63,350 nucleotides of DNA, filler included, from 3 parts of 3 records of this genome joined end to end with filler, not necessarily neighbours in it, one strand, 5' to 3'; positions 29,217 to 51,333 are shown, numbered from the whole stretch's first letter. Notes: generated by a model not told the origin, from the letters alone. Numbers and translations: made by a program.

Positions 29217-29231
29217 ACAGGGAAGGTTAAG

Positions 29232-29484
29232 AGCCAGCCGGCCTGTAAGCCGGGTTCTGTATGGCCCGGCCAGATACGAGACCTGACGCGGACGTGACAG
29301 CCATTCATCTGTGACGTCTGTTGCCAGACGCCTATCGCAACCAACCCGGACAACTGGCCTGGAAACCGGCCTGAACCGGATCGCTCCGGTTCGCGCTGTC
29401 CCTATTCGGTTTTGCTCCCGGTGGGGTTTACCATGCCGCCGCTGTTGCCAGTTGCGCGGTGGGCTCTTACCCCACCCTTTCACC
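29232..29484 (-). ncRNA. rnpB: RNase P RNA (type A), 3' part, truncated by contig end
   Basis: Minus strand reads GGTGAAAGGGTGGGGTAAGAGCCCACC...GGTAAACCCCACCGGGAGCAA...AGATGAATGGCTGTC...ACAGAACCCGGCTTAC, the conserved rnpB blocks. Confidence 0.95.
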
Positions 29485-29583
29485 NNNNNNNNNNNNNNNN
29501 NNNNNNNNNNNNNNNNNNNNNNNNNNNNTTAATTAATTAANNNNNNNNNNNNNNNNNNNNNNNNNNNNNNNNNNNNNNNNNNN
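29485..29583. other. artificial contig linker
   Basis: N-run, TTAATTAATTAA (29529-29540), N-run; the spacer gives stops in all six frames. Confidence 0.97.
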
Positions 29584-29585
29584 NG

Positions 29586-32500: not shown

Positions 32501-35500
32501 ACAAGCGGCGCCCGCGCCGGCAAAGCGGGGTTGGTTTGCGCCAGCCGCCCCATCCGAACCCGATATTGCGGATGATCTGACGGATCGCCTGCTGGAAGAC
32601 CTGATGGCCGTGCCTGCCAATCTGGTGGCCGCTTATCGCGGTACAAAACGGTTTGAACAAGGTTTCAAACCCGCGCCATTGAACGCCACCGATGATGTCC
32701 TCTTTGAGGAGGGTGGTGTCTATCTGATCACCGGCGGGTTTGGCGGTATTGGCCAGACACTGGCCGCAGATATCTTGTCGCGGCAGTCTGCGACGGTGGT
32801 TTTGCTGGGCCGCGACCCCTTGCCGGATCGTCAGGCGTGGAATGGCTATCTTGCCCGTCACGGCACGGCAGACCGCACCGCACGGCGGATGCGCAGTGTG
32901 ATCGAACTTGAGACAGCCGCAGCCGCCAAAGGTGGCCGGGTCGAGGTTGCCGGGGCCGACGTGGCCAATCTGGCGCAGATGCGCCGGGTGATTGAAGATC
33001 TGCAAAAACGCCATGGCCGGATCAATGGCGTTATCCATGCCGCCGGTGCGCTCGACGATGGGCCAATGCTGGGCAAAACGGACGCGCAGATGGATGCGGT
33101 TCTGTCGCCCAAGGTGCAGGGCTTGCGGGTCATTGATCAGTTGTTGCCTGATGGCGATCTCGATTGCCTGATCCTGTTTTCCTCCACCAGCACGGCGACC
33201 CGGTCTGCGGGGCAGGTGGATTATGTCGCAGCGAACGCCTGGCTCAATGCCTATGCCGCCGCCCGCAGTGGCGATATGACCCGCGTGATGGCGATCAACT
33301 GGGGCATCTGGGCCGATGTCGGCATGGCCACCAAAAGCCTGAGCGGCGGCGCCAGTGATGTGCTGCCCGCCCGCCCGATCAATGCGGCGCTGTTGCAGAC
33401 CATGGGTTCCGACGTGGCGGGTGATCCGGTTTTGTCCGCGCAGATCAGCAGCGCACATTGGCTGCTGGATCAACACCGCACCAAGGATGGTCAGGCGATC
33501 ATGCCCGGCACCGGCTACATTGAGCTGTTGGCCGAAGCCGCCACAGCCAAGGGGCTGACCCAAGGCTTTGAAATTCGGGATCTCTATTTCCTGCGGGCGA
33601 TGCCGGTCGAGGATGAAACGCCGCGCGACTTGCAGATCAACCTAAGCGGAGAAGGGGCGGGCTTTGCCGCTGAACTGCGCAGTGATTGCACATTGAACGG
33701 CAAATCCGGCTGGCAGCTTCACGCGCAGGCGCAGATCGCGCCGATCAGCGACCCGCAGCCAGAAACCTTCGATCTTGAGGCGGCATTTGGCCGCTGTGCG
33801 CAGATCAATACGGCGCCTGAGGGCGGGCGTTTGATTTCACCGCAAGAGGCGCATCTGGACTTTGGGCCGCGTTGGCATGTGCTGCGCGAAACCGCGGTTG
33901 GCGCGGATGAGGGTATCGCCAAACTGGCCTTGCCAGATGCCTGCCGTGATGATCTGCCTGAGGGTCACCTGTTGCACGCCGGTTTGTTGGACCTTGCCAC
34001 CGGCTGGGCGATTGATCTGGTGCCAAGCTATGATGCCAGCCACCTTTGGGTGCCGGTGTCCTATGGTGCGATCACCGTGTACGGGCCGCTTCCCGCAGAG
34101 ATTTATTCTCATGTTGCCCTGTCGAAAACGGCGGCGGGTGATGGCTTTGCCAGCTTTGATGTAACGATTTGTGATGCGGATGGCCGGATTTTGGTCAAGG
34201 TCGGGAATTTCGCGATGAAGCGGCTTGAGGGCGGCTTTGCCGCTGCGCCGCTGGACCCGCGCGAGGTGCGTTTTGATGATGTTGAGGCGGGTCAAGAGAG
34301 CCTGACACCGGCAGAGGAACGCCTTGCCTATATGGTTTCGCAGGGCATTCGCGCCGCTGAGGGACCAGAGGCATTGCGCCGTGCGATTGCGCTGGGCCGG
34401 TCGCAGGTGATTGTATCCTCACTGCCGCTAAATGGGCTGATCGCGCAGGCCGATCAGCCGCCGCAAGGGGCCAGCACCAGCGGGCAAAGCTTTGAACGCC
34501 CCGATCTCGACGGTTCTTTTGTTGCGCCGCGCAATGGCATCGAAGAACGGCTTGCTGCGATCTGGGAAAACTTGCTGGGCGTCAGCCCGGTTGGGGTTGA
34601 GGACAGCTTTTTTGATTTGGGCGGGCATTCGTTGATTGCTGTGCGCCTGTTTGCCAGTGTCAAACGCGAGTTTGCGGTCGAGTTTCCGATTTCGGTTCTG
34701 TTCGAGGCCCCGACCATTGCCAAATGTGCAGCACTGATTGCGGCACAGACCGGTGATGCGGGCGATGTTTCCGGCGCGGCGGATACCGGCGCTGCACCGG
34801 TGGCCGAAACCTTTGACTATCTCGTGCCACTGAACCAATGCGACCATAAAGACGCCGCGCCGCTGTTTGTGGTGGCGGGGATGTTTGGCAATGTGTTGAA
34901 CCTGCGCCATCTGGCCTTGCCGTTCAGCAAGGAACGCCGGGTGATGGGCATTCAGGCCCGTGGATTGATTGGCGACACGCCGCCCCATACCGACGTGGGC
35001 GAGGCGGCCCGAGACTATCTGGCTGAGGTGCGCCGCGTGCAGCCGCATGGGCCGTATCTGTTGGCGGGATATTCCGGTGGCGGGATCACCGCTTATGAAA
35101 TGGCGCAACAATTGCGCAGCGCGGGCGAGGAAGTTGCCGTTTTGGCGATGCTTGATACGCCATTGCCGGTGCGGCCATCGCTGTCGCGGCCCGATAAGGC
35201 GCTGATCAAATTGGCAGAGCTGCGCCGCAAAGGTCCGCGATACCTTGTGGAATGGGCGAAAAACCGACTGGCATGGGAAAAGACCCGCCGCGCGGGTGCG
35301 CAGGCAGATGCGGGCGATGGCAACGGGTCCGAGTTCAACAACCTCAAGATCCAGCAGGCCTTCCTGACCGCTGTCGGGGCCTATGACACACCCAAATGGG
35401 ATGGCCCGATGACCCTGTTCCGGCCACCGCTCGACTTGCATTGGCGGGTGACCAAGGGCCGGTTCGTCAGCGCGGAACGCGAATATGTGTTCGAGGACAA

Positions 35501-35678
35501 CGATTGGCGCGGCTATGTGCCAAACCTTGAGGTGATCGAAGTGCCCGGCGATCACGAATCCATGGTGCTTGCGCCCTTTGTGACCGTGTTGGCGCAAGAG
35601 CTGCGGGAAGTGATCAGCGGCGCCCTTGAGCCCGATCCAGAAGACAGCAACTGGCCCCGTGCCACGGCGGCGGAGTGA
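29586..35678 (+). CDS. type I polyketide synthase, 5' truncated (KS-AT-KR with inserted DH-ACP-TE)
   Basis: KS: TACSTS, HGTGT, NIGHL. AT: GHSMG. KR: TGGFGGIG, LDD, YVAAN. DH: HRTKDGQAIMP, HAGLLD. Carrier: GGHSL. TE: GYSGG. Confidence 0.95.
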   Translation: MGSYFYFNICSNPDLVDDVGMFLLRHTGNDKDFLSTRVSHVFDLKGPSINMQTACSTSLVAIHYACQALRAGEIDMALAGGVTIELPHGRGYEFKENEILSPDGHCHAFDHRAQGTVFGSGAGAVALRRLSDAIADGDHIWGVIKGSAVNNDGAAKAGYLAPSVDGQTDAIVKALDDAGVAAQSIGMVECHGTGTYLGDPIEVAALTEAYRKTTTDTDFCRIGSVKTNIGHLDTAAGVAGFVKSTLALHHKQMPPSLGYEAPNPAIPFEGSPFSVNDTLRDWPQGIAPRRAAINALGVGGTNAHAIIEEAPARPASEESDWPFHVLCVSGRSKSALDANTAALAAHMRAHPEQPLADVAFTLKNGRRGFEKRRVVVAETHEEAAALLEGGDTRRVFTHDLLGDAPEVVFMFPGGGAQYPGMARDLYETEPVFADWMDRGLAHLQPQLDYDIRALWLPEADQMDAAAERLKQPSVQLPLIAITEYALAQLWISWGVAPAAMVGHSMGENVAACLAGVMSFENLIDLVLLRGRLFDEVPAGGMISISAPLSAIEPLLGDDLDIASVNAPELIAVSGPQSALDAMQVRLADAGLEYQRIAIDIAAHSRMLEPILDRYRSFLAGLDLQAPQMPFMSNRTGQEITADEATNPDYWVGQLRDTVNFADCIATLSAPRDRVYLEVGPGKALSALAQMSEGVKPAQAFSTLRHPDQDIADDMYFMSVIGRLWACGVEADWAQIWGEARRNRVVLPTYAFQRSRYFIEPGSAAVAAPASALVRQDDMATWGAVPTWRPRFANADIDAITDLAATPQSWLIFGDGDGLAAPVMTRLRDAGHRVIAVRAGDAFARQDENTYTLAAEQGRRDYDLLIADLAERGLMPDRIAHFWLTDDHVAPRPGSSTFDRNLEQGFWSLTWLAQSLTEAGHDAPLHLSVFTTGAAQLKDEALAHPEKALIAGPVGVFPREMPGVTCAQIDIEEQAAPAPAKRGWFAPAAPSEPDIADDLTDRLLEDLMAVPANLVAAYRGTKRFEQGFKPAPLNATDDVLFEEGGVYLITGGFGGIGQTLAADILSRQSATVVLLGRDPLPDRQAWNGYLARHGTADRTARRMRSVIELETAAAAKGGRVEVAGADVANLAQMRRVIEDLQKRHGRINGVIHAAGALDDGPMLGKTDAQMDAVLSPKVQGLRVIDQLLPDGDLDCLILFSSTSTATRSAGQVDYVAANAWLNAYAAARSGDMTRVMAINWGIWADVGMATKSLSGGASDVLPARPINAALLQTMGSDVAGDPVLSAQISSAHWLLDQHRTKDGQAIMPGTGYIELLAEAATAKGLTQGFEIRDLYFLRAMPVEDETPRDLQINLSGEGAGFAAELRSDCTLNGKSGWQLHAQAQIAPISDPQPETFDLEAAFGRCAQINTAPEGGRLISPQEAHLDFGPRWHVLRETAVGADEGIAKLALPDACRDDLPEGHLLHAGLLDLATGWAIDLVPSYDASHLWVPVSYGAITVYGPLPAEIYSHVALSKTAAGDGFASFDVTICDADGRILVKVGNFAMKRLEGGFAAAPLDPREVRFDDVEAGQESLTPAEERLAYMVSQGIRAAEGPEALRRAIALGRSQVIVSSLPLNGLIAQADQPPQGASTSGQSFERPDLDGSFVAPRNGIEERLAAIWENLLGVSPVGVEDSFFDLGGHSLIAVRLFASVKREFAVEFPISVLFEAPTIAKCAALIAAQTGDAGDVSGAADTGAAPVAETFDYLVPLNQCDHKDAAPLFVVAGMFGNVLNLRHLALPFSKERRVMGIQARGLIGDTPPHTDVGEAARDYLAEVRRVQPHGPYLLAGYSGGGITAYEMAQQLRSAGEEVAVLAMLDTPLPVRPSLSRPDKALIKLAELRRKGPRYLVEWAKNRLAWEKTRRAGAQADAGDGNGSEFNNLKIQQAFLTAVGAYDTPKWDGPMTLFRPPLDLHWRVTKGRFVSAEREYVFEDNDWRGYVPNLEVIEVPGDHESMVLAPFVTVLAQELREVISGALEPDPEDSNWPRATAAE

Positions 35679-35683
35679 GAGAT

Positions 35684-36682
35684 ATGGCAGCAGCAAAAGT
35701 TCTGGTTCTGATCCTCAATTATCGCACGGCCGAGATGACCCTGCGGGCGGCAGAGGCGGCCTTGGCCGATATGCCGGCCCGGGCCGAGATGATCCTGATC
35801 GACAATGCCTCTGGCGACGGATCGGCGGGGGTGTTGCAACGTGCCATCACCGAACGGGGCTGGGATGAGAACGGTCTTGTGCGGTTGATCTTGTCGGATG
35901 TGAACGGCGGTTTTGGCGCGGGCAACAACCTTGGCCTCAAATCGCGCATGTCCGATGGCAGTGCGCCGGATTACTTCTATGTGCTGAACTCCGATGCCTT
36001 TCCCGATGCGGGGTGCCTGCCGCGTCTGATCACCCATCTGGAAAGCCACCCAAAGGCCGGTTTTGCAGGCAGCCATGTGCGCGGCGAGGATGACGTGACC
36101 CATTGTACCGCCTTCCGGTTCCCCTCCATTGCGGGTGAATTCGAAGGGGCGGCCCGCACGGGTGTTTTCTCGCGGATGCTCAAGAACGCCATCGTGGCCC
36201 CGCCAGTGCCGGATCACTCCGCCCGTGTCGATTGGGTGGCGGGGGCCAGCGTGCTGATCCGGGCCAAGATGCTTGAGGAAATCGGAGTGTTTGACGAAAC
36301 CTTCTTTCTCTATTTTGAGGAAACCGATCTGTGCAAACGCGCCGCCCGCGCCGGGTGGAGCTGTTGGTATCTGCCACAAAGCCGGGTTGTGCATATCGGG
36401 TCGGTGTCAACCGGCATGAAGGAATGGCAACGCATGCCGTCTTACTGGTTCGACAGCCGCCGCCATTACTTTGTCAAAAACCACGGTTCTGCCTATGCCG
36501 CCGCCGCCCTTGTGGCGCGGTTGGCAGGTGGGGCCATTCATCACCTGCGCTGTGCCATTTCGGGGAAAAACAGCCAGGATCCTGCCCATTTTCTGCGTGA
36601 TCTGGCGCGGCATGGCTTTGGCCTGTCGCTTGACCGGCAACCCGCAACATCCCGACGCCCCGCAACGGAGGACAGACCATGA
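35684..36682 (+). CDS. GT2-family glycosyltransferase
   Basis: ILNY, IDNASGD, NGGFGAGNN, LNSD and FFLYFEETD motifs. Alternative GTG start at 35675. Confidence 0.92.
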   Translation: MAAAKVLVLILNYRTAEMTLRAAEAALADMPARAEMILIDNASGDGSAGVLQRAITERGWDENGLVRLILSDVNGGFGAGNNLGLKSRMSDGSAPDYFYVLNSDAFPDAGCLPRLITHLESHPKAGFAGSHVRGEDDVTHCTAFRFPSIAGEFEGAARTGVFSRMLKNAIVAPPVPDHSARVDWVAGASVLIRAKMLEEIGVFDETFFLYFEETDLCKRAARAGWSCWYLPQSRVVHIGSVSTGMKEWQRMPSYWFDSRRHYFVKNHGSAYAAAALVARLAGGAIHHLRCAISGKNSQDPAHFLRDLARHGFGLSLDRQPATSRRPATEDRP

Positions 36683-39600
36683 CCGCAGCTTTTATTCCCG
36701 CCGGTTTTGACGCCATTTTGATGGGGGATGAATCCCTCACAATCGCTTGCGGTGACATGTTGTTGACGGGCGGGCATCGCCTGCCTGCCGTTGTGACGCG
36801 CGATCCGGCTGTCCGCACCTGGGCTGAGGGCAAGGGTCTCAAGATTGTAAAGCAGCCCCGCGATTTGATCGCGGCTGGCATCACTGCCGATTGGTTGCTG
36901 AGCATTGCAAACCTGCGGATGATCCCGGCGGATGTGCTGGCATTGCCCGCCAAGGGCGCGATCAACTTTCACGACGGACCGCTGCCGCGATATGCCGGTT
37001 TGAATACCCCCGCCTGGGCCATCATCAACGGCGAAGACAGCCACGGCATCACCTGGCATGTCATCGAAGGCGGCGTGGACGAGGGCGATATTCTGGCCCA
37101 ACGGATGGTGCAGATTGCCGAGGATGAAACCGCCTTTAGCCTCAATTCCAAGTGTTATGCCGCTGGTATGGAAAGTTTTGCCGACGTCGTTGCACAACTG
37201 GAAAGCGGGTTGCTGCAACGCACGGCCCAAGACCTGACACAGCGCAGCTATTTTGCCCGTGACGACCGCCCCGCCAATATGGGGGTTCTGGATTTCACCC
37301 AAGATGCCGCCAGCCTGTCGCGCCTGATGCGCGGGCTTGATTTTGGCGGCTATTGGAACCCGCTGACCACGCCCAAATTGATGGCGGGGGATCAGGCGCT
37401 GGTGATTGGCGGCCTGTCCGGGACGGATCAAACCGCCGATTGCGGTGCGGTTCTGACCGTGTCTGCGGACCGGATCACCATTGGCACCGCATCTGCGGCG
37501 GTTGAACTTTCGGGTATCACCACAATTGACGGTGCTGCTGTTGACCTCTCTCGTTTGTTCTCGGCAGGGGACAGCATCGTCCCTCCTGCGCTTGCGCCCC
37601 TGCCGGTCAAGGATGAAGCCTTTTGGCGCGCGGCCCTTGCGGGTGCTGATTGGATGTCCTGCCCTCTGGCGGGCGCGGCGTCTGCTGAGGATGGCGCAGA
37701 TCTGCAATCGCGGTCACTGGCCGCACCAAAAGGACAGGATCGCACCCAACAGGCGGCAGCTTTGGCTCTGACGGCGCTGAATTCCTCGGGGCAGGGCACC
37801 GGCACGCTTGCCCTGCGCCAAGACACGGCGCATCCCTTGCTGGTGGACCATGTGCCGCTGACACTCATTGCAACGGCGGCGACAACGGTTGCAGATGTCG
37901 TGGCGCGGTTCGGGAAAGATCTTGAACGGGCGTCTGACAGTGCGGGTTTTGCCACCGATTTGGCGCTGCGCGATCCGGCGATCGATCATAGTGAGCGTAC
38001 CGAGGTTGGCCTGAGTTTCACCGCTGATGCCGTGCCGGGTGCTGCGCTGACCCTTGCTGTGACGGATGAAGGGTGCAGCGTGATCTATGACCCTGCCCGT
38101 ATCGGAGAGGCCGCTTTGGCCCTTTTGGTGGCCCGTTTCGAAGCGGCGCTTGCGCAGATCGGGACAGCGCAAACCTGCGCTGATCTGTGGGCCTTGCCCG
38201 CGTCTGAGCGTGATCAGTTGCTTTTGGGATGGAACGCAACAGGCCGCAGCTATGACCGCACCACCATTCACGCGGCATTTGAGGCGCAAGTGGCCCTTGC
38301 GCCGGATGCCGAGGCATTGGTGTTTGAGGGGGAGGCGTTGAGCTACGGCGATCTGAACAACCGGGCCAACAAGCTGGCGCATGTTCTGCGCGACATAGGC
38401 GCGGCCCCCGGAACGCCCATCGGCCTTTATACCGCGCGGGGCGTTGATTTGATCGTGGGCGCTTTGGCGATCCTGAAATCGGGGGGCGCTTATGTGCCAC
38501 TTGATCCGGCCTATCCTGCCGACCGGATCGCCCATTACATCACGGACAGCGCCGCACCAATTATCGTGACCCAATCGGCGCTGGCCGGGCAGCTGCCCGC
38601 CCATAACGCACAGGTGGTGCAGTTGGACAGCGATGCGCGTATCGCAGCAGCCTCTGCCGCCGATCCGACAAGCGCGGCAACGGCGCAAGATCTGGCCTAT
38701 CTGATCTATACCTCCGGCTCTACCGGCACACCCAAAGGTGTGATGGTCAACCACGGCAATGTTGCCAATTTCTTTGCCGGTATGGATGACCGGATCGACC
38801 ATGAGGCGGGCGCGGTCTGGCTGGCCGTGACCAGCCTGTCGTTCGATATTTCGGTGCTTGAGCTGTTCTGGACCCTGTCGCGGGGGTTCAAGCTGGTGCT
38901 GGCTGGCGATGAAAGCCGCACACAGGTGTCGGACGGGCCAATTGGTCTGTCAGATCGCAAGATCGACTTTAACCTGTTTTATTGGGGCAATGACGGCGGC
39001 GTCGGACCCAAGAAATACGAATTGCTGCTGGAGGGGGCAAAGTTTGCCGATGCCCATGGCTTCAACGCGATCTGGACGCCAGAGCGGCATTTCCACGCCT
39101 TTGGCGGCCCTTACCCGAACCCGTCTGTCACCGGCGCAGCGGCGGCGGCTGTCACCCAGAACCTCGAAATCCGCGCGGGGTCTTGCGTGGCCCCCTTGCA
39201 CCATCCGGCCCGCATTGCCGAGGAATGGGCGGTGATCGACAACCTGACCAATGGCCGCGTGGGCATTGGTGTGGCCAGCGGCTGGCAGCCCGATGATTTT
39301 GTGCTGCGCCCGGAAAACACACCGCCAAACAACAAACCAGCGATGTTCGAAACCATTGACCAGCTGCGCCGCCTGTGGCGCGGTGAACCGGTGGAGTTTG
39401 CCAAACAGGATGGCACGCCTCATGCCGTTGTCACGCAGCCGCGCCCGGTTTCCAAGGAACTGCCCGTTTGGGTGACCACGGCGGGCAACCCCGCCACATG
39501 GCGCGAGGCGGGCGAGATCGGCGCAAATGTTCTGACCCACCTGTTGGGCCAGTCGGTGGATGAGGTCGCGGATAAGATCAAGATCTACCACGACGCCTTG

Positions 39601-41262
39601 CGCGGAGCAGGGCATGATCCGGCTGACTTTACGGTCACGGTGATGTTGCACACCTATTTGGCATCCACCCGCGCCGAGGCCGAAGAGGTCGCGCGTGAAC
39701 CGATGAAAGACTACCTGCGCTCTGCGGCGGGTCTGATCAAGCAATATGCCTGGGCATTCCCGGCGTTCAAGAAGCCCAAAGGCGTGACCAACCCTTTTGA
39801 GGTCAATCTTGAGGATCTGTCGCCCGACGAAATGGAAGGCATTCTGGAATTTGCATTCCAGCGCTATTTCAACGACAGCGGCATGTTTGGCACCGTGGCC
39901 GATGGTCTGGCACGTACAGAACAGCTCAAGCGGATTGGCGTGGATGAGATTGCCTGCCTGATCGACTATGGCATTTCGACACCCAAGGTTATGGAAGGCC
40001 TCAAACCGCTGGCCGATGTTTTGGCGCAATCCAACAAGGAAACCGTGCTGCGCGAGGATGATTACTCGCTTGCCACACAGATCGTGCGCCACGGCGTGAC
40101 GCATCTTCAATGCACGCCGTCAATGGCGCAGATGCTGGTGACCAACCACGAGGCACAGGCGGCGCTGTCGCGGGTCAAACATCTGATGGTTGGCGGCGAA
40201 GCTTTGCCGGGATCATTGGTCGCGGCGCTGAAATCCTGCACCGGGGCCAGGGTGCAAAACATGTATGGCCCGACCGAGACCACCATTTGGTCAACCACAA
40301 CGATGGTCGCAAATGGGGCTGAGGCCACTGCGCCCATCGGCACACCGATTGCCAACACGCAAGTCTATGTTCTGGATGCAGATCTGGCGCCGCAACCTGC
40401 GGGTGCTGCGGGCGAGCTTTGGATTGGCGGCGATGGGGTGACGGATGGCTATTGGAACCAGCCGGAACTGACCGCAGAGCGGTTTGTCGAAAATCCCTTT
40501 GGCACAGGACGAATGTACCGCACTGGCGATCTGGCGGCTTGGGATGCAGAGGGCGCGCTGCACTTTATGGGCCGCGCCGATGCACAGGTCAAAATTCGTG
40601 GGCACCGGATTGAGTTGGGCGAGATCGAAGCCTGCCTTGCGGCAATGGATGGCGTCACCCAATCGGTTGTTGTGCCGCGCGATGACGTGCCGGGCGGGCC
40701 GCAACTGGTGGGCTATTTCACCGCCAGCCGGACAATTGCCGATGCTGAGCTGACGGCGCATCTGTCGCGCGATCTGCCGGCGATCATGGTGCCGGGGTAT
40801 TTTGCGCAACTGGGCGCGATGCCCCTGACCCCGAATAAAAAGATCGACCGCAAGGCGCTGCCACGCCCGGACCGCCGGAAAACGGCGCGTTCGGACAATG
40901 CCGCCAGCAAAGCCGCGCCTGCCAGCGCGACGCAGGCCGCTATCGCCGGGGTTTGGTCAAAGGTGTTGGGCGTTGGAAATATCCGTGCCGAAGACAATTT
41001 CTTTGGTCTGGGCGGGCATTCCTTGCTGGCCGTGCAAGCGCACCGCGACATCAAGGCGGCGCTGGGCGCGGATCAATTGTCAATCACGGACATCTTCCGG
41101 TTTCCTACGTTGGAGGGTCTTGCCGCGCATCTGGACAAGGCTCCCGGCACAGCGGCAGAGCCCGCCGCGGAACCTGCTGTTGCGGCGCCTGATCCGGCCA
41201 AGTCGGAAACCATGTCGAAACGCCGGATGATGCGGGCAGGCCGGAGCAAGGCTGGCGCATGA
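36679..41262 (+). CDS. NRPS-like protein: formyltransferase, partial C domain, A domain interrupted by a luciferase-like monooxygenase, PCP
   Basis: INFHDGPLPRYAG and GVDEGD (formyltransferase); YTSGSTG, FDIS, YGPTE, YRTGD, KIRGHRIELGEIE (A domain); WTPERHFH and HHPARIAEEW (LLM); GGHSL (PCP). Confidence 0.93.
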   Translation: MTAAFIPAGFDAILMGDESLTIACGDMLLTGGHRLPAVVTRDPAVRTWAEGKGLKIVKQPRDLIAAGITADWLLSIANLRMIPADVLALPAKGAINFHDGPLPRYAGLNTPAWAIINGEDSHGITWHVIEGGVDEGDILAQRMVQIAEDETAFSLNSKCYAAGMESFADVVAQLESGLLQRTAQDLTQRSYFARDDRPANMGVLDFTQDAASLSRLMRGLDFGGYWNPLTTPKLMAGDQALVIGGLSGTDQTADCGAVLTVSADRITIGTASAAVELSGITTIDGAAVDLSRLFSAGDSIVPPALAPLPVKDEAFWRAALAGADWMSCPLAGAASAEDGADLQSRSLAAPKGQDRTQQAAALALTALNSSGQGTGTLALRQDTAHPLLVDHVPLTLIATAATTVADVVARFGKDLERASDSAGFATDLALRDPAIDHSERTEVGLSFTADAVPGAALTLAVTDEGCSVIYDPARIGEAALALLVARFEAALAQIGTAQTCADLWALPASERDQLLLGWNATGRSYDRTTIHAAFEAQVALAPDAEALVFEGEALSYGDLNNRANKLAHVLRDIGAAPGTPIGLYTARGVDLIVGALAILKSGGAYVPLDPAYPADRIAHYITDSAAPIIVTQSALAGQLPAHNAQVVQLDSDARIAAASAADPTSAATAQDLAYLIYTSGSTGTPKGVMVNHGNVANFFAGMDDRIDHEAGAVWLAVTSLSFDISVLELFWTLSRGFKLVLAGDESRTQVSDGPIGLSDRKIDFNLFYWGNDGGVGPKKYELLLEGAKFADAHGFNAIWTPERHFHAFGGPYPNPSVTGAAAAAVTQNLEIRAGSCVAPLHHPARIAEEWAVIDNLTNGRVGIGVASGWQPDDFVLRPENTPPNNKPAMFETIDQLRRLWRGEPVEFAKQDGTPHAVVTQPRPVSKELPVWVTTAGNPATWREAGEIGANVLTHLLGQSVDEVADKIKIYHDALRGAGHDPADFTVTVMLHTYLASTRAEAEEVAREPMKDYLRSAAGLIKQYAWAFPAFKKPKGVTNPFEVNLEDLSPDEMEGILEFAFQRYFNDSGMFGTVADGLARTEQLKRIGVDEIACLIDYGISTPKVMEGLKPLADVLAQSNKETVLREDDYSLATQIVRHGVTHLQCTPSMAQMLVTNHEAQAALSRVKHLMVGGEALPGSLVAALKSCTGARVQNMYGPTETTIWSTTTMVANGAEATAPIGTPIANTQVYVLDADLAPQPAGAAGELWIGGDGVTDGYWNQPELTAERFVENPFGTGRMYRTGDLAAWDAEGALHFMGRADAQVKIRGHRIELGEIEACLAAMDGVTQSVVVPRDDVPGGPQLVGYFTASRTIADAELTAHLSRDLPAIMVPGYFAQLGAMPLTPNKKIDRKALPRPDRRKTARSDNAASKAAPASATQAAIAGVWSKVLGVGNIRAEDNFFGLGGHSLLAVQAHRDIKAALGADQLSITDIFRFPTLEGLAAHLDKAPGTAAEPAAEPAVAAPDPAKSETMSKRRMMRAGRSKAGA

Positions 41263-41945
41263 TCGAGGCCTGCGCCGATGACGATGCTGTATTGATCCAA
41301 GCGGCAGCTGCGGCCCTGTTTGACGGGGCCGTTGCTGTGGCAATTGCAGATCCGCATCAGGCGCAGCCCCCGATCTGGCCGGAAGAGGCGCAATTTGTGG
41401 CGCAGGCGGTTTCCAAAAGACGGGCCGAGTTTGCCGCCGGTCGCAGCGCGGCGCGGGCGGCCATGCGCATGTTGGGCGGGCCGGACATCGCCATTCCGGC
41501 AAGCGCGGACCGCGCACCAAGCTGGCCCGCAGGCTGGCATGGCAGCATCACCCACAACGATCGGTGGTGTCTGGCGGCGGTCACGCGCGGGGCGGCGCAT
41601 TTGGGTGTGGATATTGAGGTGGCAACGCCGTTGAACCCCGATTTACTGTCCACAATTTGCAGTCCTGCCGAAGTGGCGCGGATTGCAGGCGCCGATCAGG
41701 GCATGCTGGCCAAGGTGGTCTTTTCCGCCAAGGAAGCCGCCTACAAGGCGCAGTATCCTTTGACAGAGACCCTGTTTGGATTTGATCATCTTGACGTTGT
41801 TTTGGCACCTTATGACGGCCAGTTTCAAGCACGGTTTGTGCAACCTGCCGGTCGATTTGCGGCTGGCGATGTGCTGCGGGGCCGCTTTGCCATGGTGCGG
41901 GGGCAGATTGTTACGGCGGTCACCATTGACCCGATGAAAGAGTAA
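41259..41945 (+). CDS. 4'-phosphopantetheinyl transferase (EntD/Sfp type)
   Basis: KRRAEFAAGR, WPAGWHGSITH, GVDIE and FSAKEAAYKA motifs. Confidence 0.92.
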   Translation: MIEACADDDAVLIQAAAAALFDGAVAVAIADPHQAQPPIWPEEAQFVAQAVSKRRAEFAAGRSAARAAMRMLGGPDIAIPASADRAPSWPAGWHGSITHNDRWCLAAVTRGAAHLGVDIEVATPLNPDLLSTICSPAEVARIAGADQGMLAKVVFSAKEAAYKAQYPLTETLFGFDHLDVVLAPYDGQFQARFVQPAGRFAAGDVLRGRFAMVRGQIVTAVTIDPMKE

Positions 41946-41956
41946 AGAGGCGTTTC

Positions 41957-42904
41957 GTGATGGCCAGTATGAGCCGACGTTTGACCCTGACCGGGCTTGC
42001 ACTTGTTGCGGCAGGCGGGGCGTTCTGGATGATGCGGCGGCAGTCGGGCAAAGCCGAGGCCGAGGCGCTTTATGCCGCGCCCTTGCCCGCCCCGAAGGGG
42101 GCGCTGCGGGTCTATCATCTGGGTCATTCGCTGGTGGGGCGCGACATGCCCGCGATGCTGGCGCAACTGGCGGGTGCGGGGCATCACTATGACAGCCAGC
42201 TGGGCTGGGGCACATCGCTTAAGGAACATTGGGAGCCGGATCTGCCGATCAATGGCTTTGATCAGGAAAATGACCATGCGCGTTTCCGCCCCGCGGCCGA
42301 AGCGGTCACGTCAGGCACCTATGATGCGGTGGTGTTGACCGAGATGGTCGAGCTGCGCGATGCGATCAAATACCACGACAGCGCCCGTTACTTGGGGCGT
42401 TGGGCCAAACAAGTGCATGAGGCCAATCCGGCGGCGCGGATCTATCTTTATGAGACATGGCATCACATCAACGACCCCGCAGGCTGGGAAAACCGCATTC
42501 GGGACGATCTCGATGCGCTTTGGCGCGAAAAGGTGCTGTATCCGGCGCTGGCCCAAAGCGGCGCGCCGATCCATCTGATCCCGGCGGGGCAGGTCATGGC
42601 GGCCTTTGTGCGTGCAGTAGAAAAGCGCGGCGGTGTGGAAGGCATCAACGGGGTGGATGATCTGTTTGCGATTTCCGATGACGGCAGCCGCGACACGATC
42701 CATATCAATGATCTGGGTGCCTATCTGGTGGCGCTGACCCATTATGCGGTGCTGTATCATCGCGATCCGACAGGGCTGCCGCATCAGTTGCAGCGGGCTG
42801 ATGGCAGCACTGCCGAGGCGCCAAGCGGCGAGGCGGCGGCGCTGATGCAGCAGGTTGTCTGGGATGTGGTGCGATCCATGCCCGATAGCGGAGTGGCGGG
42901 ATGA
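41957..42904 (+). CDS. exported or membrane-anchored SGNH-like protein
   Basis: N-terminal SRR plus hydrophobic stretch; GHSL nucleophile-like motif; DTIH (DxxH) near the C-terminus. Family call is inference. Confidence 0.7.
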   Translation: MMASMSRRLTLTGLALVAAGGAFWMMRRQSGKAEAEALYAAPLPAPKGALRVYHLGHSLVGRDMPAMLAQLAGAGHHYDSQLGWGTSLKEHWEPDLPINGFDQENDHARFRPAAEAVTSGTYDAVVLTEMVELRDAIKYHDSARYLGRWAKQVHEANPAARIYLYETWHHINDPAGWENRIRDDLDALWREKVLYPALAQSGAPIHLIPAGQVMAAFVRAVEKRGGVEGINGVDDLFAISDDGSRDTIHINDLGAYLVALTHYAVLYHRDPTGLPHQLQRADGSTAEAPSGEAAALMQQVVWDVVRSMPDSGVAG

Positions 42905-45414
42905 GCCTGATTGACACAGTTTTTTCTATTCTGATGGTCGGGCACAGCCTTTTTGGCCAGGACGGGCCGGATATGCTGGAGAAGACGCTCAACGCAGGAG
43001 CCGGCGGCGCGCAGGTACAGGCGCAGATCATCAACGGCGCGCCTTTGCGCTACAACTGGGCGCATGGCGCGGAGGCTGAGGGCGTCAATGCCCATCAGGT
43101 TCTGGCGGAGGGAGAGATCACGCATCTGATCCTCACCGAAGCGCTGCCGCTGGCCAATCATGTGACATGGTCTGACAGCAGCTACTTTGCGCAGTCTTAC
43201 GCAGAACTGGCGATTGCGGCCAATCCGGCGGCGCAGGTCTTTGTCATGGAGACATGGCACAGCCTGAAAAGCGGAACGGGCGAAACGGTTGACCACGACG
43301 AGGGTGCCGACGTGCCCTGGCGCAGCCGGATTGATGCGGACCTGCGGGTCTGGGAGGGGATCGTAGGCGAGATCAACGCAGGCCTGCCACGAGATGTGCC
43401 TGCTGCGCGTCTCATTCCCGCTGGTCAGGCGATGGCGCAACTGTACGATGCGATCAACGCGGGCGAGGTTGCGGGTGTGACGTCGATCACGGCGCTGTTT
43501 TCCGATGACATTCACCTCAATGATCTGGGGCATTTCTTTGTCTCACAGGTTCAATTTGCCGCGCTGACCGGGCAATCCCCCGAAGGGCTGCCGGGGCCGG
43601 GTAGGGGGCGCTGGGGCGGCGATGTTCAAACGGCGGATCCTGCGCTGGCGACTGCGCTGCAAAAGATCGCATGGGATACGGTTGCGGGCTATCTGGGCGA
43701 GGCTGCTCTGCGCGTACCGGCGGCCAAGCCATCTGCGGACAAAGCGCCGAATAGGCCCACAGGTCCGCCACTGCCCGAACCTGCCCAACTGGTTGCAGCG
43801 GATCTGCCGCTGCGCGGTGCAGGGGCGGTCGGGCTTGCGCCTGTTACCGATTGGTCAAGCCAGCAGCCGTTCCTTGATGTGATGAAAACCGCCCGTCCAT
43901 GGTTTGGCCACCTGCCCAAACGATGGGGCGGCGTGGATCATGAGGTGCTGCGCGATGGCGGCTATCTGGATGCGCAGGGCTGGCCGATCCGAATGCCGGA
44001 TGATCTGAGCAGTATCGGCACCGTGGTTCTGACCGACATGCCGGAGGCCGCCACATCGCTGGCGGGGCGGTATGTGCTGCGCTTTGACGGGGATGTGGTG
44101 ATTGAAGTCGCAGGGCGGGCCAGCAACATCCGTTATGACACGGGCGAGGTGCGTTTTGACTACACGCCCGGTCCGGGCAGCGTGGATATCCGGTTGCAAC
44201 GCATCGGGACCGCTGCGCCATTGGGTGAGATTACATTGGTACGAGAGGACCGCGCGGCGCTGTTGGATCAGGGGGCGCTCTTCAACCCCGACTGGACGGC
44301 GCGGCTGACCCCGTTCGAGGTGCTGCGGTTCATGGATTGGATGGAGACCAACAATTCAGACCTTGCCGCCTGGGAACACCGCCCCTTGCCGGGCAATGCC
44401 ACCTATATGGGCGGCATTCCGATTGAGGTGATGATCCGTCTGGGCAATGAACTGGGCAAAGACATTTGGGTCAACGTTCCGCATCAGGCCACGGATGACT
44501 TTGTGCAACGCTTTGCCACCATGGCCCGTGATCAGCTTGATCCGGGGCGAAAGGTCTATGTCGAGTATTCAAACGAGGTTTGGAACTGGCAGTTTGATCA
44601 GGCCCGCTGGGCGGATGATCAGGCGCGGGACCGTTGGGGCGAGGACAATACCTGGATGCAGTATTACGGGGTGCGGGCGGCAGAGGTGGCGCAGATCTGG
44701 TCGGCTGCCTTTGGCGCAGGGGCCAAGGATCAACTGGTCAATGTGATCAGCAGCCAGACCGGCTGGCTTGGGCTGGAAGATGCGGCCTTGAACGCGCCTT
44801 TGGCACAGGCCGAAGGTGTTGCCGCGCCCAAAACCGCCTTTGATGCCTATGCCGTAACGGGATATTTTGGCGGCGTTCTGGGGCTGGAGGACCGCGAGGA
44901 TATGGTCAAAGGCTGGCTTGCTGACAGCCTTGCCAAAGCGCGGGCGGATGCATCTGCGCAGGGTTTGAACGGGCAGGAGGCCATCGCATATATCGCGGCG
45001 CATCGCTATGATCTGGCCAGCGCTTTTGCGGGGCGCGAGTTGCATGATGGGGCCGTCAGCGGCAACCCTGAGGATACATTGGCGGATCTCATCGGGCGGG
45101 TTTGGCCCTATCACGCACAGGTCGCTGCGGATCATGGGCTGGACCTGATCATGTACGAGGGGGGCAGCCATATCGTGGGCCTTGGTCCGCAGATCGAAGA
45201 CGCCGAGTTGACCGCGTTTTTCCACCATTTCAACTACACTCAAGAAATGGGTGACCTTTACCGCACCCTGCTGGCGGGTTGGCAATCGGTGGGCGGCAAA
45301 CTGTTCAACGCCTACTCAGACGTGTATAGCCCAACCAAATGGGGATCATGGGGGGGCTTGCGCCATCTGGATGATCAAAACCCACGTTGGACCGCATTGA
45401 CAGGCAATTTATGA
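42901..45414 (+). CDS. SGNH-like domain fused to a putative glycoside-hydrolase-like barrel
   Basis: N-terminal GHSL...DDIH region paralogous to the upstream gene; Pro/Ala-rich linker; C-terminal LRFMDW, VEYSNEVWN and MYEGG motifs. Confidence 0.7.
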   Translation: MSLIDTVFSILMVGHSLFGQDGPDMLEKTLNAGAGGAQVQAQIINGAPLRYNWAHGAEAEGVNAHQVLAEGEITHLILTEALPLANHVTWSDSSYFAQSYAELAIAANPAAQVFVMETWHSLKSGTGETVDHDEGADVPWRSRIDADLRVWEGIVGEINAGLPRDVPAARLIPAGQAMAQLYDAINAGEVAGVTSITALFSDDIHLNDLGHFFVSQVQFAALTGQSPEGLPGPGRGRWGGDVQTADPALATALQKIAWDTVAGYLGEAALRVPAAKPSADKAPNRPTGPPLPEPAQLVAADLPLRGAGAVGLAPVTDWSSQQPFLDVMKTARPWFGHLPKRWGGVDHEVLRDGGYLDAQGWPIRMPDDLSSIGTVVLTDMPEAATSLAGRYVLRFDGDVVIEVAGRASNIRYDTGEVRFDYTPGPGSVDIRLQRIGTAAPLGEITLVREDRAALLDQGALFNPDWTARLTPFEVLRFMDWMETNNSDLAAWEHRPLPGNATYMGGIPIEVMIRLGNELGKDIWVNVPHQATDDFVQRFATMARDQLDPGRKVYVEYSNEVWNWQFDQARWADDQARDRWGEDNTWMQYYGVRAAEVAQIWSAAFGAGAKDQLVNVISSQTGWLGLEDAALNAPLAQAEGVAAPKTAFDAYAVTGYFGGVLGLEDREDMVKGWLADSLAKARADASAQGLNGQEAIAYIAAHRYDLASAFAGRELHDGAVSGNPEDTLADLIGRVWPYHAQVAADHGLDLIMYEGGSHIVGLGPQIEDAELTAFFHHFNYTQEMGDLYRTLLAGWQSVGGKLFNAYSDVYSPTKWGSWGGLRHLDDQNPRWTALTGNL

Positions 45415-47462: not shown

Positions 47463-47544
47463 CCTAACGTCAAATCTTGGCGCTGGTACACGGGTCTTGC
47501 AGGGCTTAGTCTGCGCAAACGGCAGAAGTGAGGCAATTTTTCGG

Positions 47545-51292: not shown

Positions 51293-51333
51293 GTGCCACT
51301 TCGTTTTATAAGGTTGCCGGGATCGGGTTGTTT

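What the first reader, a model, noticed from the sequence alone, without database searches (positions are those of the whole stretch)
36679..41262. Formyltransferase-initiated Gly A domain with a luciferase-like monooxygenase inserted between motifs a4 and a5
Seen: the A domain stops after FDISVLELF (about 38910), an LLM domain runs about 38959-40035, and the A domain resumes (HLQCTPS, GGEAL, NMYGPTETTIW, YRTGD, NKKIDR) before a GGHSL PCP. The specificity residues read by eye are D-I-L-Q-M-G-M-I-W-K, close to the glycine code DILQLGLIWK. The formyltransferase keeps its N-x-H and Asp motifs. Known: F-A-T initiation modules (LgrA type) N-formylate the first residue, and a4-a5 monooxygenase insertions in the Gly modules of MtaG/MelG are thought to hydroxylate the glycine alpha-carbon. 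Inference: having both activities in a starter module suggests an oxidised N-formyl-glycyl starter, which is unusual chemistry.
Basis: partly seen in the sequence, partly recalled or inferred. Interest (0 to 1): 0.75.

Follow-up and report, generated by a model that had tools for sequence, protein, structure and literature searches.

The report
Roseobacter NRPS starter module, formyl-glycine oxidising

Summary
ORF 36679-41262 (+, 1527 aa) reads: formyltransferase (F), the C-terminal half of a condensation domain, an adenylation (A) domain split between motifs A4 and A5 by a full TIGR04020 luciferase-like monooxygenase (LLM), then a PCP. The N-x-H…D triad, the motif-anchored code DILQMGMIWK and the PCP serine are conserved in 121 family members.

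It is not rare. At least 709 stretches in species-representative genomes encode a relative. The same ~1550-aa architecture is also named from Rhizobiales, Planctomycetota, Myxococcota and Gammaproteobacteria. The gene belongs to the PKS–glycosyltransferase–NRPS–PPTase cluster "conserved amongst roseobacters", whose product was still unidentified in 2015-2016 papers (PMC4337385, PMC5014874).

Most likely mechanism (inferred): it loads glycine, N-formylates it, hydroxylates the alpha-carbon, and hands it to the KS-AT-KR-DH-carrier-TE synthase.

- The half C domain between F and A.
- A contig junction at 29486-29585 that truncates the PKS.
- 74 of 80 related loci carry Wzx/Wzy-type polysaccharide genes within 10 kb.

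Verdict: a correct annotation of a known orphan family. Interest is moderate.

The parts
29486..29585 (.). Contig junction: two runs of N around ttaattaattaa. The window is two contigs joined.
   Evidence: Read directly.
29586..35678 (+). Type I PKS, KS-AT-(KR prefix)-KR-DH-carrier-TE. Its 5' end (about 140 codons of the KS) is lost at the contig junction.
   Evidence: Pfam and NCBIfam. The full-length homolog in L001 is 2170 aa with the KS starting at residue 29. The carrier reads GGHSL and matches EntF PCP-TE.
35675..36682 (+). GT2 glycosyltransferase (P0003). It overlaps the PKS stop and the NRPS start by 4 nt each.
   Evidence: Pfam Glycos_transf_2, E 2.3e-13. A homolog lies directly upstream of the NRPS gene in 71 of 80 loci.
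36679..37563 (+). NRPS residues 1-295: formyltransferase domain with both subdomains (catalytic N-terminal and FMT-like C-terminal). N96, H98 and D134 are present.
   Evidence: Pfam. PDB sequence hits: WbkC, ArnA, FMT and, weakly, the LgrA F domain. AF2 pLDDT 94.1. Foldseek: FMT/ArnA at E 1e-23 over ~310 columns. The triad is conserved in 120-121 of 121 sequences.
37564..38238 (+). NRPS residues 296-520: C-terminal lobe of a condensation domain plus the C-A linker. No HHxxxDG motif. This is the least conserved part of the protein.
   Evidence: AF2 pLDDT 92.9. Foldseek hits are all NRPS C or C-A structures: Txo1 6oyf E 1.2e-9 and TMq 0.66, also LgrA, EntF and RzmA. Atlas feature hits are to Condensation clusters at 0.95 and 0.94. 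Conservation is 0.32-0.36. Absence of HHxxxDG was read.
38239..38958 (+). NRPS residues 521-760: A domain, N-terminal part (motifs A1-A4, ending FDISVLELF at 722-730).
38968..40020 (+). NRPS residues 764-1114: luciferase-like FMN monooxygenase (TIGR04020) inserted in the A domain.
   Evidence: 466 bits, full-length profile match. PuwE domain 6ket_A at E 1e-100 over 352 residues. This is the most conserved stretch of the protein, 0.80-0.93.
40036..40878 (+). NRPS residues 1120-1400: A domain, C-terminal part (the TPS segment and motifs A5-A10).
40939..41133 (+). NRPS residues 1421-1485: PCP, with serine 1448 in GGHSL.
   Evidence: Pfam PP-binding. S1448 is conserved in 120 of 121 sequences.
41209..41262 (+). 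NRPS residues 1511-1527 and the stop codon: a nearly invariant basic tail. Candidate docking peptide for the KS (inference).
   Evidence: Invariant or nearly invariant columns S1513-R1522 in alignment A1.
41259..41945 (+). Sfp/EntD-type 4'-phosphopantetheinyl transferase (P0004). It overlaps the NRPS stop by 4 nt.
   Evidence: Pfam 4PPT_N and ACPS. Directly downstream of the NRPS gene in 65 of 80 loci.
41957..42904 (+). P0005: exported protein with only a weak DUF4886-like match. Function unknown.
   Evidence: Homologs covering at least 50% of the query occur in 32 of 80 loci.
42901..45414 (+). P0006: 837 aa, no known family. Function unknown.
   Evidence: No Pfam or NCBIfam match. No PDB sequence hit. 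The Atlas gives only an unnamed cluster. Homologs occur in 23 of 80 loci.
45387..46244 (+). Second GT2 glycosyltransferase (P0007). The true start is probably the ATG at 45411.
   Evidence: Pfam, E 7.2e-24. Homologs occur in 37 of 80 loci. The start was read.
46248..50192 (.). Polysaccharide genes: GT4 (46248-47621, -), Wzx-like flippase (47497-48900, +), Wzz-like chain-length protein (48891-50192, -; weak match).
   Evidence: Pfam. Homologs within 10 kb of the NRPS gene in 42, 42 and 49 of 80 loci respectively.

Best explanation
This is the loading (starter) module of the hybrid NRPS-PKS cluster that is conserved in Roseobacter-group bacteria. Its architecture is F - half C domain - A(Gly, split by an LLM) - PCP.

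Proposed steps (all inferred unless marked):
1. The neighbouring PPTase makes the PCP holo.
2. The A domain adenylates glycine and loads it on Ser1448.
3. The F domain transfers a formyl group from 10-formyl-tetrahydrofolate to the tethered amine.
4. The embedded FMN monooxygenase hydroxylates the alpha-carbon of the now N-acylated glycyl thioester. The formyl group plays the part that the upstream peptide plays in MtaG/SolF-type modules.
5. The N-formyl-(alpha-hydroxy)glycyl unit passes to the KS of the KS-AT-KR-DH-carrier-TE synthase. It is extended with malonate at least once, reduced and dehydrated, and then released by the TE.
6. The co-transcribed GT2 enzymes, and the Wzx/Wzy-type genes around the core, suggest that the product ends up glycosylated or attached to a surface polysaccharide.

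Shown here: domain identities, order and insertion point; conservation of catalytic and specificity residues; synteny.

Inferred: the substrate, both chemical steps, their order, and the fate of the product.
For: Domains and insertion point:
- HMM matches are far above the curated cut-offs.
- The LLM matches its profile end to end. It is the most conserved part of the protein (0.80-0.93 identity to the query in 50-residue windows over 121 sequences), as expected for an active domain.
- Its nearest solved relative is the PuwE monooxygenase domain (E 1e-100). That domain is assigned to making a 2-hydroxy acyl chain on a carrier (PMC4219810 section 12, passages).

F domain:
- N96, H98 and D134 align with the N-x-H…D of the WbkC formyltransferase.
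- They are present in 120, 120 and 121 of 121 family members, and the triad is N-H-D in 110 of 112 FT domains of the representatives.
- The AF2 model (pLDDT 94.1) superposes on FMT/ArnA over ~310 columns.

Glycine:
- The code is DILQMGMIWK. Eight of the ten positions are invariant, one is M in 120 of 121, and one is M in 112 of 121.
- 123 of 128 LLM-interrupted A domains among the 150 representatives begin DILQ. DILQLGMIWK occurs 33 times and DILQMGMIWK 29 times.

Starter role:
- Only the C-terminal lobe of a C domain is present.
- The PKS begins with a KS and ends with a TE.
- PKS, GT2, NRPS and PPTase are in this order in 54 of 80 loci by strict criteria. Taken individually: PKS 74, GT2 71, PPTase 65 of 80.
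- In the window four gene junctions overlap by 4 nt.

F and LLM as one unit:
- 107 of the 150 best representatives carry both.
- On a tree of the A(LLM) region the FT label needs 6 changes, against 19.6 on average in shuffles, with 0 of 500 shuffles as low.

Polysaccharide link: 74 of 80 loci have at least one homolog of Wzx, Wzy-like, Wzz-like, GT4 or WecG within 10 kb.
Against: - No biochemical evidence exists here or in the papers seen. The product of the cluster was reported as unidentified (PMC4337385, PMC5014874).
- The specificity positions were placed by motif anchoring and recalled GrsA numbering, not by alignment to 1AMU. MtaG, MelG and SolF were not available for direct comparison.
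- The F domain is much closer in sequence to sugar N-formyltransferases (WbkC E 5e-20) than to the one biochemically proven NRPS F domain, LgrA (E ~1e-5).
- The count of 107 of 150 is biased, because the query itself contained both domains.
- The tree is a FastTree with many weakly supported forks. Two of the 'no FT' rows are 961-969-aa fragments.
- An N-formyl carbinolamide may not survive, which leads to the first rival.
- TIGR04020 domains are also credited with Baeyer-Villiger-type chemistry (PMC8739492 section 9, passages).
- The KR-before-DH order of the PKS resembles iterative synthases, so chain length cannot be predicted.
- Gene neighbourhood does not prove that the product joins a polysaccharide.
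Confidence: 0.5

Rival explanations
1. Traceless formyl group. The first steps are the same, but the N-formyl-alpha-hydroxyglycyl thioester is a carbinolamide that collapses to formamide and a glyoxylyl-S-PCP. The PKS would then be primed with a two-carbon oxo-aldehyde unit that carries no nitrogen. This is the MtaG/MelG logic run on a formyl 'peptide'.
For: In myxothiazol and melithiazol the hydroxylated glycyl residue is cleaved to release the preceding chain as an amide (PMC10204066 section 12, passages). The domain set and the glycine code are the same kind. One representative, P0171, is F-A(LLM)-PCP-PCP-TE with nothing downstream in the same protein. That arrangement would fit a module whose job ends at this step.
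Against: In solanimycin B the alpha-hydroxyglycine is kept (PMC10204066 section 12). A free glycyl thioester, once hydroxylated, would lose ammonia anyway, so formylation would be superfluous for this purpose. Yet the F triad is strictly conserved. Nothing here measures stability.
Confidence: 0.15
2. Oxazole starter, as in conglobatin, oxazolomycin and phthoxazolin. N-formylglycine is extended by the PKS and cyclodehydrated to a 5-substituted oxazole.
For: The F-A(Gly)-PCP loader hands to a KS, as in CongA, the oxazolomycin loader and PtxE (PMC4504003 section 10 and PMC5764310 section 16, passages).
Against: Those pathways need a CongE/OzmP/PtxD-type ATP pyrophosphatase with an SGGKDS motif. 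A six-frame scan for SGG[KVLIAM]DS found none in the window. In the 80 loci it found one, in a 237-residue reading frame near the edge of L053. This was a motif scan only, not a profile search. The oxazole route needs no oxygenase, whereas here the LLM is the best conserved domain.
Confidence: 0.05
3. The formyltransferase domain does not act on the PCP-bound glycine. It acts on an amino sugar of the neighbouring polysaccharide pathway, or it is only a structural scaffold.
For: The best sequence matches are sugar N-formyltransferases: WbkC E 5e-20, FdtF, ArnA. The cluster sits among polysaccharide genes.
Against: The domain is fused in cis to A and PCP in every family member listed. A multimodular NRPS without an LLM, P0184 (F-A-PCP-C-A…), aligns collinearly with residues 9-743, linker included. 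The LgrA F domain is also detectably homologous. A purely structural role does not explain an invariant N-H-D triad.
Confidence: 0.07
4. The LLM performs a different oxidation, or acts at a different time: on the PKS-bound chain, as a Baeyer-Villiger-type oxygenase, or oxidising twice to an alpha-oxo (oxamoyl) unit.
For: TIGR04020-type domains in PKS lines are credited with alpha-hydroxylation and with chain-shortening Baeyer-Villiger-type steps (PMC8739492 section 9, passages). An FMN monooxygenase domain gives alpha-hydroxy and alpha-keto amides in myxoglucamide assembly (PMC13638107, abstract and passages).
Against: The insert sits inside a glycine A domain, as in the modules where glycine alpha-hydroxylation is proposed (PMC10204066). 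123 of 128 LLM-interrupted A domains examined carry a DILQ… code. That ties the oxygenase to glycine rather than to the downstream chain.
Confidence: 0.12

Closest known systems
[quoted passage not shown] 2007, Microb Ecol 54:31; not held, known to me only through PMC4337385 and PMC5014874)
   Same: It has the same four core genes: PKS, glycosyltransferase, NRPS and PPTase. The nearest named homologs are from Sulfitobacter and other Rhodobacterales.
   Different: The papers I could read describe four genes and no domain detail. Here the core is co-transcribed with three more genes and is embedded in a Wzx/Wzy-type polysaccharide locus.
F-A-PCP loading modules that feed a PKS: CongA (conglobatin), the oxazolomycin loader, PtxE (phthoxazolin), rhizopodin. 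Also LgrA module 1 (linear gramicidin).
   Same: An N-terminal formyltransferase, a glycine-type A domain (valine in LgrA), a PCP, no working C domain, and hand-over to a KS (PMC4504003, PMC5764310).
   Different: None of those is described with an oxygenase inside the A domain, in the passages I read. No CongE/OzmP-type cyclodehydratase motif lies nearby. Relative to LgrA, this F domain keeps an FMT-like C-terminal subdomain and is followed by half a C domain. The matched F segment and the A domain are 359 residues apart here, against about 61 in LgrA.
Glycine modules with a monooxygenase in the A domain: MtaG (myxothiazol), MelG (melithiazol), SolF (solanimycin)
   Same: A flavin monooxygenase sits inside a glycine-specific A domain, with proposed hydroxylation of the glycine alpha-carbon (PMC10204066 section 12).
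   Different: Those are elongation or termination modules whose glycine nitrogen carries the upstream chain through a C domain. Here the module is a starter and the acyl group would be formyl.
PuwE monooxygenase domain (PDB 6KET) and the TIGR04020 MupA/Atu3671 family
   Same: It is the closest solved structure by sequence, E 1e-100 over 352 residues. The family model is matched at 466 bits against a cut-off of 244.
   Different: PuwE's domain lies between a PKS and an NRPS module and is assigned to 2-hydroxylation of a 3-amino fatty acyl chain (PMC4219810). It is not inside an A domain.
Tetronate block of the Vibrio cholerae O1 antigen locus (VC0248-VC0252). This is an analogy only.
   Same: A dedicated set of genes for a non-sugar acyl substituent sits inside a polysaccharide locus, and its product acylates an amino sugar (PMC3441752, introduction passages).
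   Different: No homology was tested. It is not an NRPS-PKS. It is cited only to show that such an arrangement has a precedent.

Membership tests
NRPS formylation-domain initiation module (F-A-PCP) | A formyltransferase domain at the N terminus of a module with A and PCP and no functional C domain | tested here: met
   Pfam and NCBIfam give the domain order. Only the C-terminal lobe of a C domain is present, and no HHxxxDG motif.
NRPS formylation-domain initiation module (F-A-PCP) | Formyltransferase fold with the catalytic Asn, His and Asp | tested here: met
   The AF2 model has pLDDT 94.1. Foldseek gives FMT/ArnA at E 1e-23. N96, H98 and D134 align with WbkC and are conserved in 120-121 of 121 sequences.
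NRPS formylation-domain initiation module (F-A-PCP) | Sequence relationship to a proven NRPS F domain (LgrA) | tested here: inconclusive
   The relationship is detectable but weak: E ~1e-5, 28 bits, residues 70-167. Sugar formyltransferases and FMT score far better. A multimodular F-A-PCP-C… NRPS (P0184) aligns over residues 9-743.
NRPS formylation-domain initiation module (F-A-PCP) | Formyl transfer from formyl-tetrahydrofolate to the PCP-bound amino acid | not testable with these tools
   This needs an enzyme assay.
A domain interrupted by a monooxygenase (MtaG/MelG/SolF type) | A flavin monooxygenase domain inserted between core motifs A4 and A5 | tested here: met
A4 FDISV is at 722, the LLM at 764-1114 and A5 NMYGPTE at 1194.
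A domain interrupted by a monooxygenase (MtaG/MelG/SolF type) | Glycine specificity code | tested here: met
   The code is DILQMGMIWK by motif anchoring. 123 of 128 LLM-interrupted A domains begin DILQ. The reference glycine code DILQLGLIWK is recalled, not taken from a call.
A domain interrupted by a monooxygenase (MtaG/MelG/SolF type) | An elongation module whose C domain puts the upstream chain on the glycine nitrogen | tested here: not met
   There is no complete C domain. The module is N-terminal and starts the line. I therefore file it as 'works like', not as a member of that module type.
A domain interrupted by a monooxygenase (MtaG/MelG/SolF type) | Hydroxylation of the glycine alpha-carbon | not testable with these tools
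   This needs an assay. It is only proposed for the known cases in the passages read (PMC10204066).
TIGR04020 MupA/Atu3671 family LLM | Score above the curated cut-off over the whole model | tested here: met
   466.4 bits against a cut-off of 244.45, profile positions 1-340 of 341.
Conserved roseobacter PKS/NRPS cluster | PKS, glycosyltransferase, NRPS and PPTase genes together in a Roseobacter-group genome | tested here: met
   In the window. In 80 related loci: PKS 74, GT2 71, PPTase 65, all four in order 54. The nearest named relatives are Sulfitobacter.
Oxazole-forming F-A-PCP/PKS pathways (conglobatin type) | A CongE/OzmP/PtxD-type ATP pyrophosphatase (SGGKDS motif) in the cluster | tested here: not met
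   A motif scan found none in the window. In 80 loci it found one, in a reading frame not adjacent to the core genes. This was a motif scan only.

The most novel reading that the evidence does not exclude
F plus an LLM-split glycine A domain is a dedicated, widespread two-step device. It makes an N-formyl hemiaminal (or, after collapse, a glyoxylyl) starter. In Rhodobacterales the short polyketide built on that starter is not a free antibiotic or siderophore. It is a non-sugar primer or decoration of a Wzx/Wzy-made surface polysaccharide. If so, the long-standing orphan 'roseobacter PKS/NRPS cluster' is really part of a cell-surface glycoconjugate pathway.
Probability: 0.25. Interest if true: 0.7.

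Novelty: new member of a known kind. Interest (0 to 1): 0.45.

Why it matters
The cluster is among the most widely shared secondary-metabolite loci of marine Roseobacter-group bacteria. One paper reports it in 28 of 57 genomes (PMC4337385). Here at least 709 stretches in species-representative genomes encode a relative. Its product was still unknown in the papers I could read.

Two points from this work make the problem more tractable:
- The starter chemistry can be stated precisely and tested on one 1527-aa protein.
- The core genes are almost always surrounded by polysaccharide assembly genes. This redirects the search for the product from culture extracts towards cell-surface polymers.

The F-A(LLM)-PCP unit also occurs in several other phyla. 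One biochemical characterisation would therefore annotate a large family.

Tried and rejected
- Truncated KS as biology: rejected. The KS is cut by a contig junction, and the L001 homolog is complete.
- Adjacency of the two contigs: the FMO-like gene before the gap (27729-29216) is unrelated to the gene upstream of the PKS in L001. I treat the left contig (dcw cluster) as unrelated context.
- Whole-model Foldseek of residues 1-545 showed only the formyltransferase part. I therefore modelled 296-545 separately.
- P0006: no answer from Pfam, NCBIfam, PDB sequences or the Atlas.
- PMC13291983 (hybrid PUFA-type lipids) holds none of my five terms. PMC4359443, PMC11595833 and PMC8273931 add nothing on this cluster.
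- Literature searches for F plus LLM plus adenylation found no description of this module (2 papers; 14; 25). The search for a polysaccharide link (1 paper) also found nothing relevant. These are full-text word searches of the held library only.
- Martens et al. 2007 is not held.
- No supplementary files were opened.
- Complex prediction was not used. No binding claim is made.

Full report
**What is there**

The ORF 36679-41262 (+) is open over 1527 codons.

Pfam finds these domains:
- Formyl_trans_N at residues 70-170, E 2.3e-18.
- A weak Formyl_trans_C at 200-293, 19.2 bits, below the cut-off of 21.1.
- AMP-binding in two stretches, E 2e-87. The first is 534-747 against profile positions 1-242 of 384.
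- Bac_luciferase at 778-1030, E 9.3e-49.
- AMP-binding_C at 1315-1388.
- PP-binding at 1421-1485.

NCBIfam places a complete TIGR04020 MupA/Atu3671-family monooxygenase at 764-1114 (466 bits, cut-off 244). It places the second half of the adenylation-domain model at 1125-1331.

A4 (FDISV, 722) comes before the insert and A5 (NMYGPTE, 1194) after it.

About 360 residues separate the matched formyltransferase segment from the A domain. In LgrA the same two matches are about 61 residues apart.

An AlphaFold2 model of residues 1-545, built on 52 sequences from the window and related loci, is confident (pLDDT 94.1, pTM 0.88). Its first ~300 residues superpose on the two-subdomain formyltransferases FMT and ArnA (Foldseek E 1e-23 to 1e-20, ~310 columns).

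A separate model of residues 296-545 (pLDDT 92.9) matches only NRPS condensation domains and C-A didomains. Examples are Txo1 6oyf (E 1.2e-9, TMq 0.66), LgrA, EntF and the RzmA starter C domain. An Atlas feature search pointed the same way, to Condensation clusters at 0.95 and 0.94.

The piece is about half the size of a C domain and has no HHxxxDG motif. It is the least conserved part of the protein (0.32-0.36 identity to the query, against 0.80-0.93 for the LLM). I read it as the C-terminal lobe of a C domain kept as a scaffold. That role is an inference.

**Conserved residues**

In a MAFFT alignment of the query with the 120 listed homologs:
- N96 and H98 are present in 120 of 121 sequences. 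The remaining one has a gap.
- D134 is present in 121 of 121.
- The PCP serine 1448 is present in 120 of 121.
- The ten specificity positions read DILQMGMIWK. Eight are invariant. M1195 is present in 120 of 121 and M1170 in 112 of 121.

I anchored those ten positions on the core motifs with GrsA numbering recalled from memory, not by alignment to 1AMU. N96, H98 and D134 align with the N-x-H…D of the Brucella WbkC formyltransferase.

**How common it is**

- The word-indexed protein search found 1816 proteins with E ≤ 0.001 among 8000 scored candidates. The 120 listed are 1417-1545 aa long and 59-92% identical. All carry the formyltransferase, AMP-binding and luciferase-like domains, and all but one (P0091) also PP-binding. 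They are named mostly from Sulfitobacter.
709 of them encode a relative. The best 80 are nearly all Rhodobacterales.
- A search of 1.84 billion 50%-identity representatives with residues 1-1200 gave 175,814 hits at E ≤ 0.001. These are essentially all NRPS A domains.
- My parse of the best 150 representatives gave 107 with both FT and LLM, 21 with LLM only, 5 with FT only and 17 with neither by my thresholds. This ranking favours proteins that have both domains, because the query had both.
- Pfam on 12 of those 150 showed variants of the same unit: with a following C domain, with PCP-TE, with a preceding C domain, with a C domain between F and A, and with an added methyltransferase. It also showed an F-A-PCP-C-A… NRPS without an LLM that aligns with residues 9-743, linker included.
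- A homolog search with one distant representative (40% identical) listed the same ~1550-aa architecture under names from Aureimonas, Methylobacterium, Bosea, Allorhizobium, Planctomycetota, Myxococcota (Sandaracinus), Agarilytica, Ruegeria pomeroyi and Phaeobacter.
- Of 128 LLM-split A domains in the 150 representatives, 123 have a code beginning DILQ. DILQLGMIWK occurs 33 times and DILQMGMIWK 29 times.
- On a FastTree of the A(LLM) region (129 rows) the FT label needs 6 changes, against a mean of 19.6 in shuffles, with 0 of 500 shuffles as low. Support on that tree is weak at many forks, and two 'no FT' rows are fragments.

**Context in the window**

At 29486-29585 two runs of N flank ttaattaattaa. 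The window is two contigs joined. The left contig ends in an RNase P RNA cut at its 5' end (29230-, minus strand, 142 bits). It carries the dcw cell-division cluster.

The right contig starts inside the KS of a PKS (29586-35678). The complete homolog in L001 is 2170 aa, KS-AT-KR-DH-carrier-TE, with the KS starting at residue 29. About 140 codons are therefore missing here for technical reasons.

The PKS carrier reads GGHSL and matches the PCP-TE of EntF. KR precedes DH, an order I recall from iterative synthases. I therefore do not predict chain length.

Seven genes follow one another on the + strand: PKS, GT2, NRPS, PPTase, P0005, P0006, GT2. They have 4-nt overlaps at 35675, 36679, 41259 and 42901. 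After them come a GT4, a Wzx-like flippase and a Wzz-like gene.

**Context elsewhere**

Across the 80 related loci:
- The PKS lies upstream on the same strand in 74.
- The GT2 lies directly upstream of the NRPS gene in 71.
- The PPTase lies directly downstream in 65.
- All four are in order in 54 by strict criteria. Several of the misses are short contigs or split alignments.

Homologs covering at least half of each query lie within 10 kb as follows: GT4 in 42, Wzx in 42, Wzz-like in 49, Wzy-like in 45 and WecG in 34 of 80 loci. 74 of 80 loci have at least one of the five. The six without include four contigs of 4-14 kb. In some genera (for example Shimia) these genes lie upstream of the PKS, and in others downstream.

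**What is known**

- PMC4337385 (passages) describes a conserved NRPS/PKS cluster of four genes (NRPS, PKS, glycosyltransferase, PPTase) in 28 of 57 roseobacter genomes, with the product not characterised.
- PMC5014874 (passages) says the same in 2016. Both cite Martens et al. 2007, which is not held.
- F-A(Gly)-PCP loaders that feed a PKS are described for conglobatin, oxazolomycin, rhizopodin and phthoxazolin. There a CongE/OzmP/PtxD ATP pyrophosphatase is proposed to form the oxazole (PMC4504003 section 10; PMC5764310 sections 16-17; passages).
- A flavin monooxygenase inside a glycine A domain is described for SolF, where alpha-hydroxyglycine is kept, and for myxothiazol and melithiazol, where the hydroxylated residue is cleaved (PMC10204066 section 12, passages).
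- TIGR04020-type domains in PKS lines are credited with alpha-hydroxylation or chain-shortening oxidation (PMC8739492 section 9, passages).
- The closest solved relative of the LLM is the PuwE domain (6KET, E 1e-100). It is assigned to a 2-hydroxy group on a carrier-bound chain (PMC4219810 section 12, passages).
- My word searches for a paper that describes F plus LLM in one module found none. The one search for a link between this cluster and polysaccharide genes found none either.

**Mechanism**

The best-supported reading is the following.
1. Glycine is loaded on the PCP.
2. The F domain formylates the tethered amine.
3. The LLM hydroxylates the alpha-carbon of the N-acylated thioester. In the known LLM-glycine modules the nitrogen is always acylated by the upstream chain. 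A starter module has no upstream chain, so the formyl group would supply that acyl group. This would explain why F and the LLM travel together.
4. The unit then passes to the KS and is extended, reduced, dehydrated and released.
5. The product is glycosylated or joined to a surface polymer.

Only domain identity, conserved residues and synteny are shown. Every chemical step is inferred.

Rivals:
- Collapse of the carbinolamide to formamide and a glyoxylyl starter.
- An oxazole route. This is disfavoured because no SGGxDS-type gene lies nearby and because an oxygenase would be unnecessary.
- A formyltransferase that serves the sugar pathway. This is disfavoured by the cis fusion, by collinear homology to F-A NRPS starts, and by the conserved triad.
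- A different or later oxidation by the LLM.

**Verdict**

Its chemistry is plausible but untested. Its sense of rarity is wrong, because this is a member of a very large, automatically annotated, functionally orphan family.

This analysis adds three things: the half C domain, the contig artefact, and the near-constant polysaccharide neighbourhood. The last gives a concrete new place to look for the product.

**Left unchecked**

- Direct comparison with MtaG, MelG, SolF, CongA and OzmO.
- Cluster-member names.
- The closed metagenome and viral collections.
- All supplementary files.

Noticed in passing
window 29486-29585: Two runs of N around ttaattaattaa: a scaffold linker. The window is two contigs joined. 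The PKS gene that starts at 29586 lacks about 140 codons for that reason only.
   Followed up: yes
window 29230-29485 (-): Bacterial RNase P RNA class A, 142 bits, model positions 117-367. It is cut at its 5' end by the same contig end.
   Followed up: yes
L001-L080, within 10 kb of the NRPS gene; window 46248-50192: Wzx, Wzy-like, Wzz-like, GT4 and WecG homologs accompany the PKS/NRPS core in 74 of 80 loci across many Rhodobacterales genera. Their position relative to the core (upstream or downstream) differs between genera.
   Followed up: partly
window 42901-45414 (+), P0006; window 41957-42904 (+), P0005: P0006 is 837 aa with no Pfam, NCBIfam or PDB sequence match, and only an unnamed Atlas cluster. 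In tblastn its N-terminal part cross-hits the regions matched by P0005, which has a weak DUF4886-like match. Both recur near the cluster in 23-32 of 80 loci. Function unknown.
   Followed up: partly
window 35675-35678, 36679-36682, 41259-41262, 42901-42904: Four successive gene junctions overlap by 4 nt, which suggests translational coupling along PKS-GT2-NRPS-PPTase and P0005-P0006.
   Followed up: no
window 41209-41259 (NRPS residues 1511-1527): A basic C-terminal tail is nearly invariant in 37 aligned homologs, while the preceding ~25 residues vary. It may be a docking peptide for the KS.
   Followed up: no
window 34500-35678 (C terminus of the PKS): The only carrier domain of the PKS has the NRPS-type GGHSL motif. 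Together with the TE it matches EntF PCP-TE. KR precedes DH in the domain order.
   Followed up: no
proteins P0171, P0180, P0188, P0231, P0240, P0261: The F-A(LLM)-PCP unit occurs with extra domains elsewhere: PCP-TE, a following C domain, a preceding C domain, a C domain between F and A, and a methyltransferase inside the A domain. Their source organisms could not be looked up.
   Followed up: partly
L063, L064, L074: In these three loci the GT2 gene is not between the PKS and the NRPS. It is elsewhere in two of them (38% identity) and not found in one.
   Followed up: no
window 50001-52200: GC falls to 0.534 in this stretch. It holds a 322-aa ORF without a Pfam match (50324-51292, -) that nevertheless recurs in 41 of 80 loci. 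It also holds a 183-aa ORF that matches only the N-terminal domain of malic enzyme (51621-52172, -).
   Followed up: no
window 26010-29216: At the end of the left contig lie a 350-aa ORF at 26010-27062 (-) that I read by eye from its translation as an AraC-type regulator, a small protein at 27173-27634 (+) that looks cupin-like by eye, and an FMO-like flavin monooxygenase at 27729-29216 (+). The FMO-like gene is unrelated to the gene upstream of the PKS in L001.
   Followed up: partly
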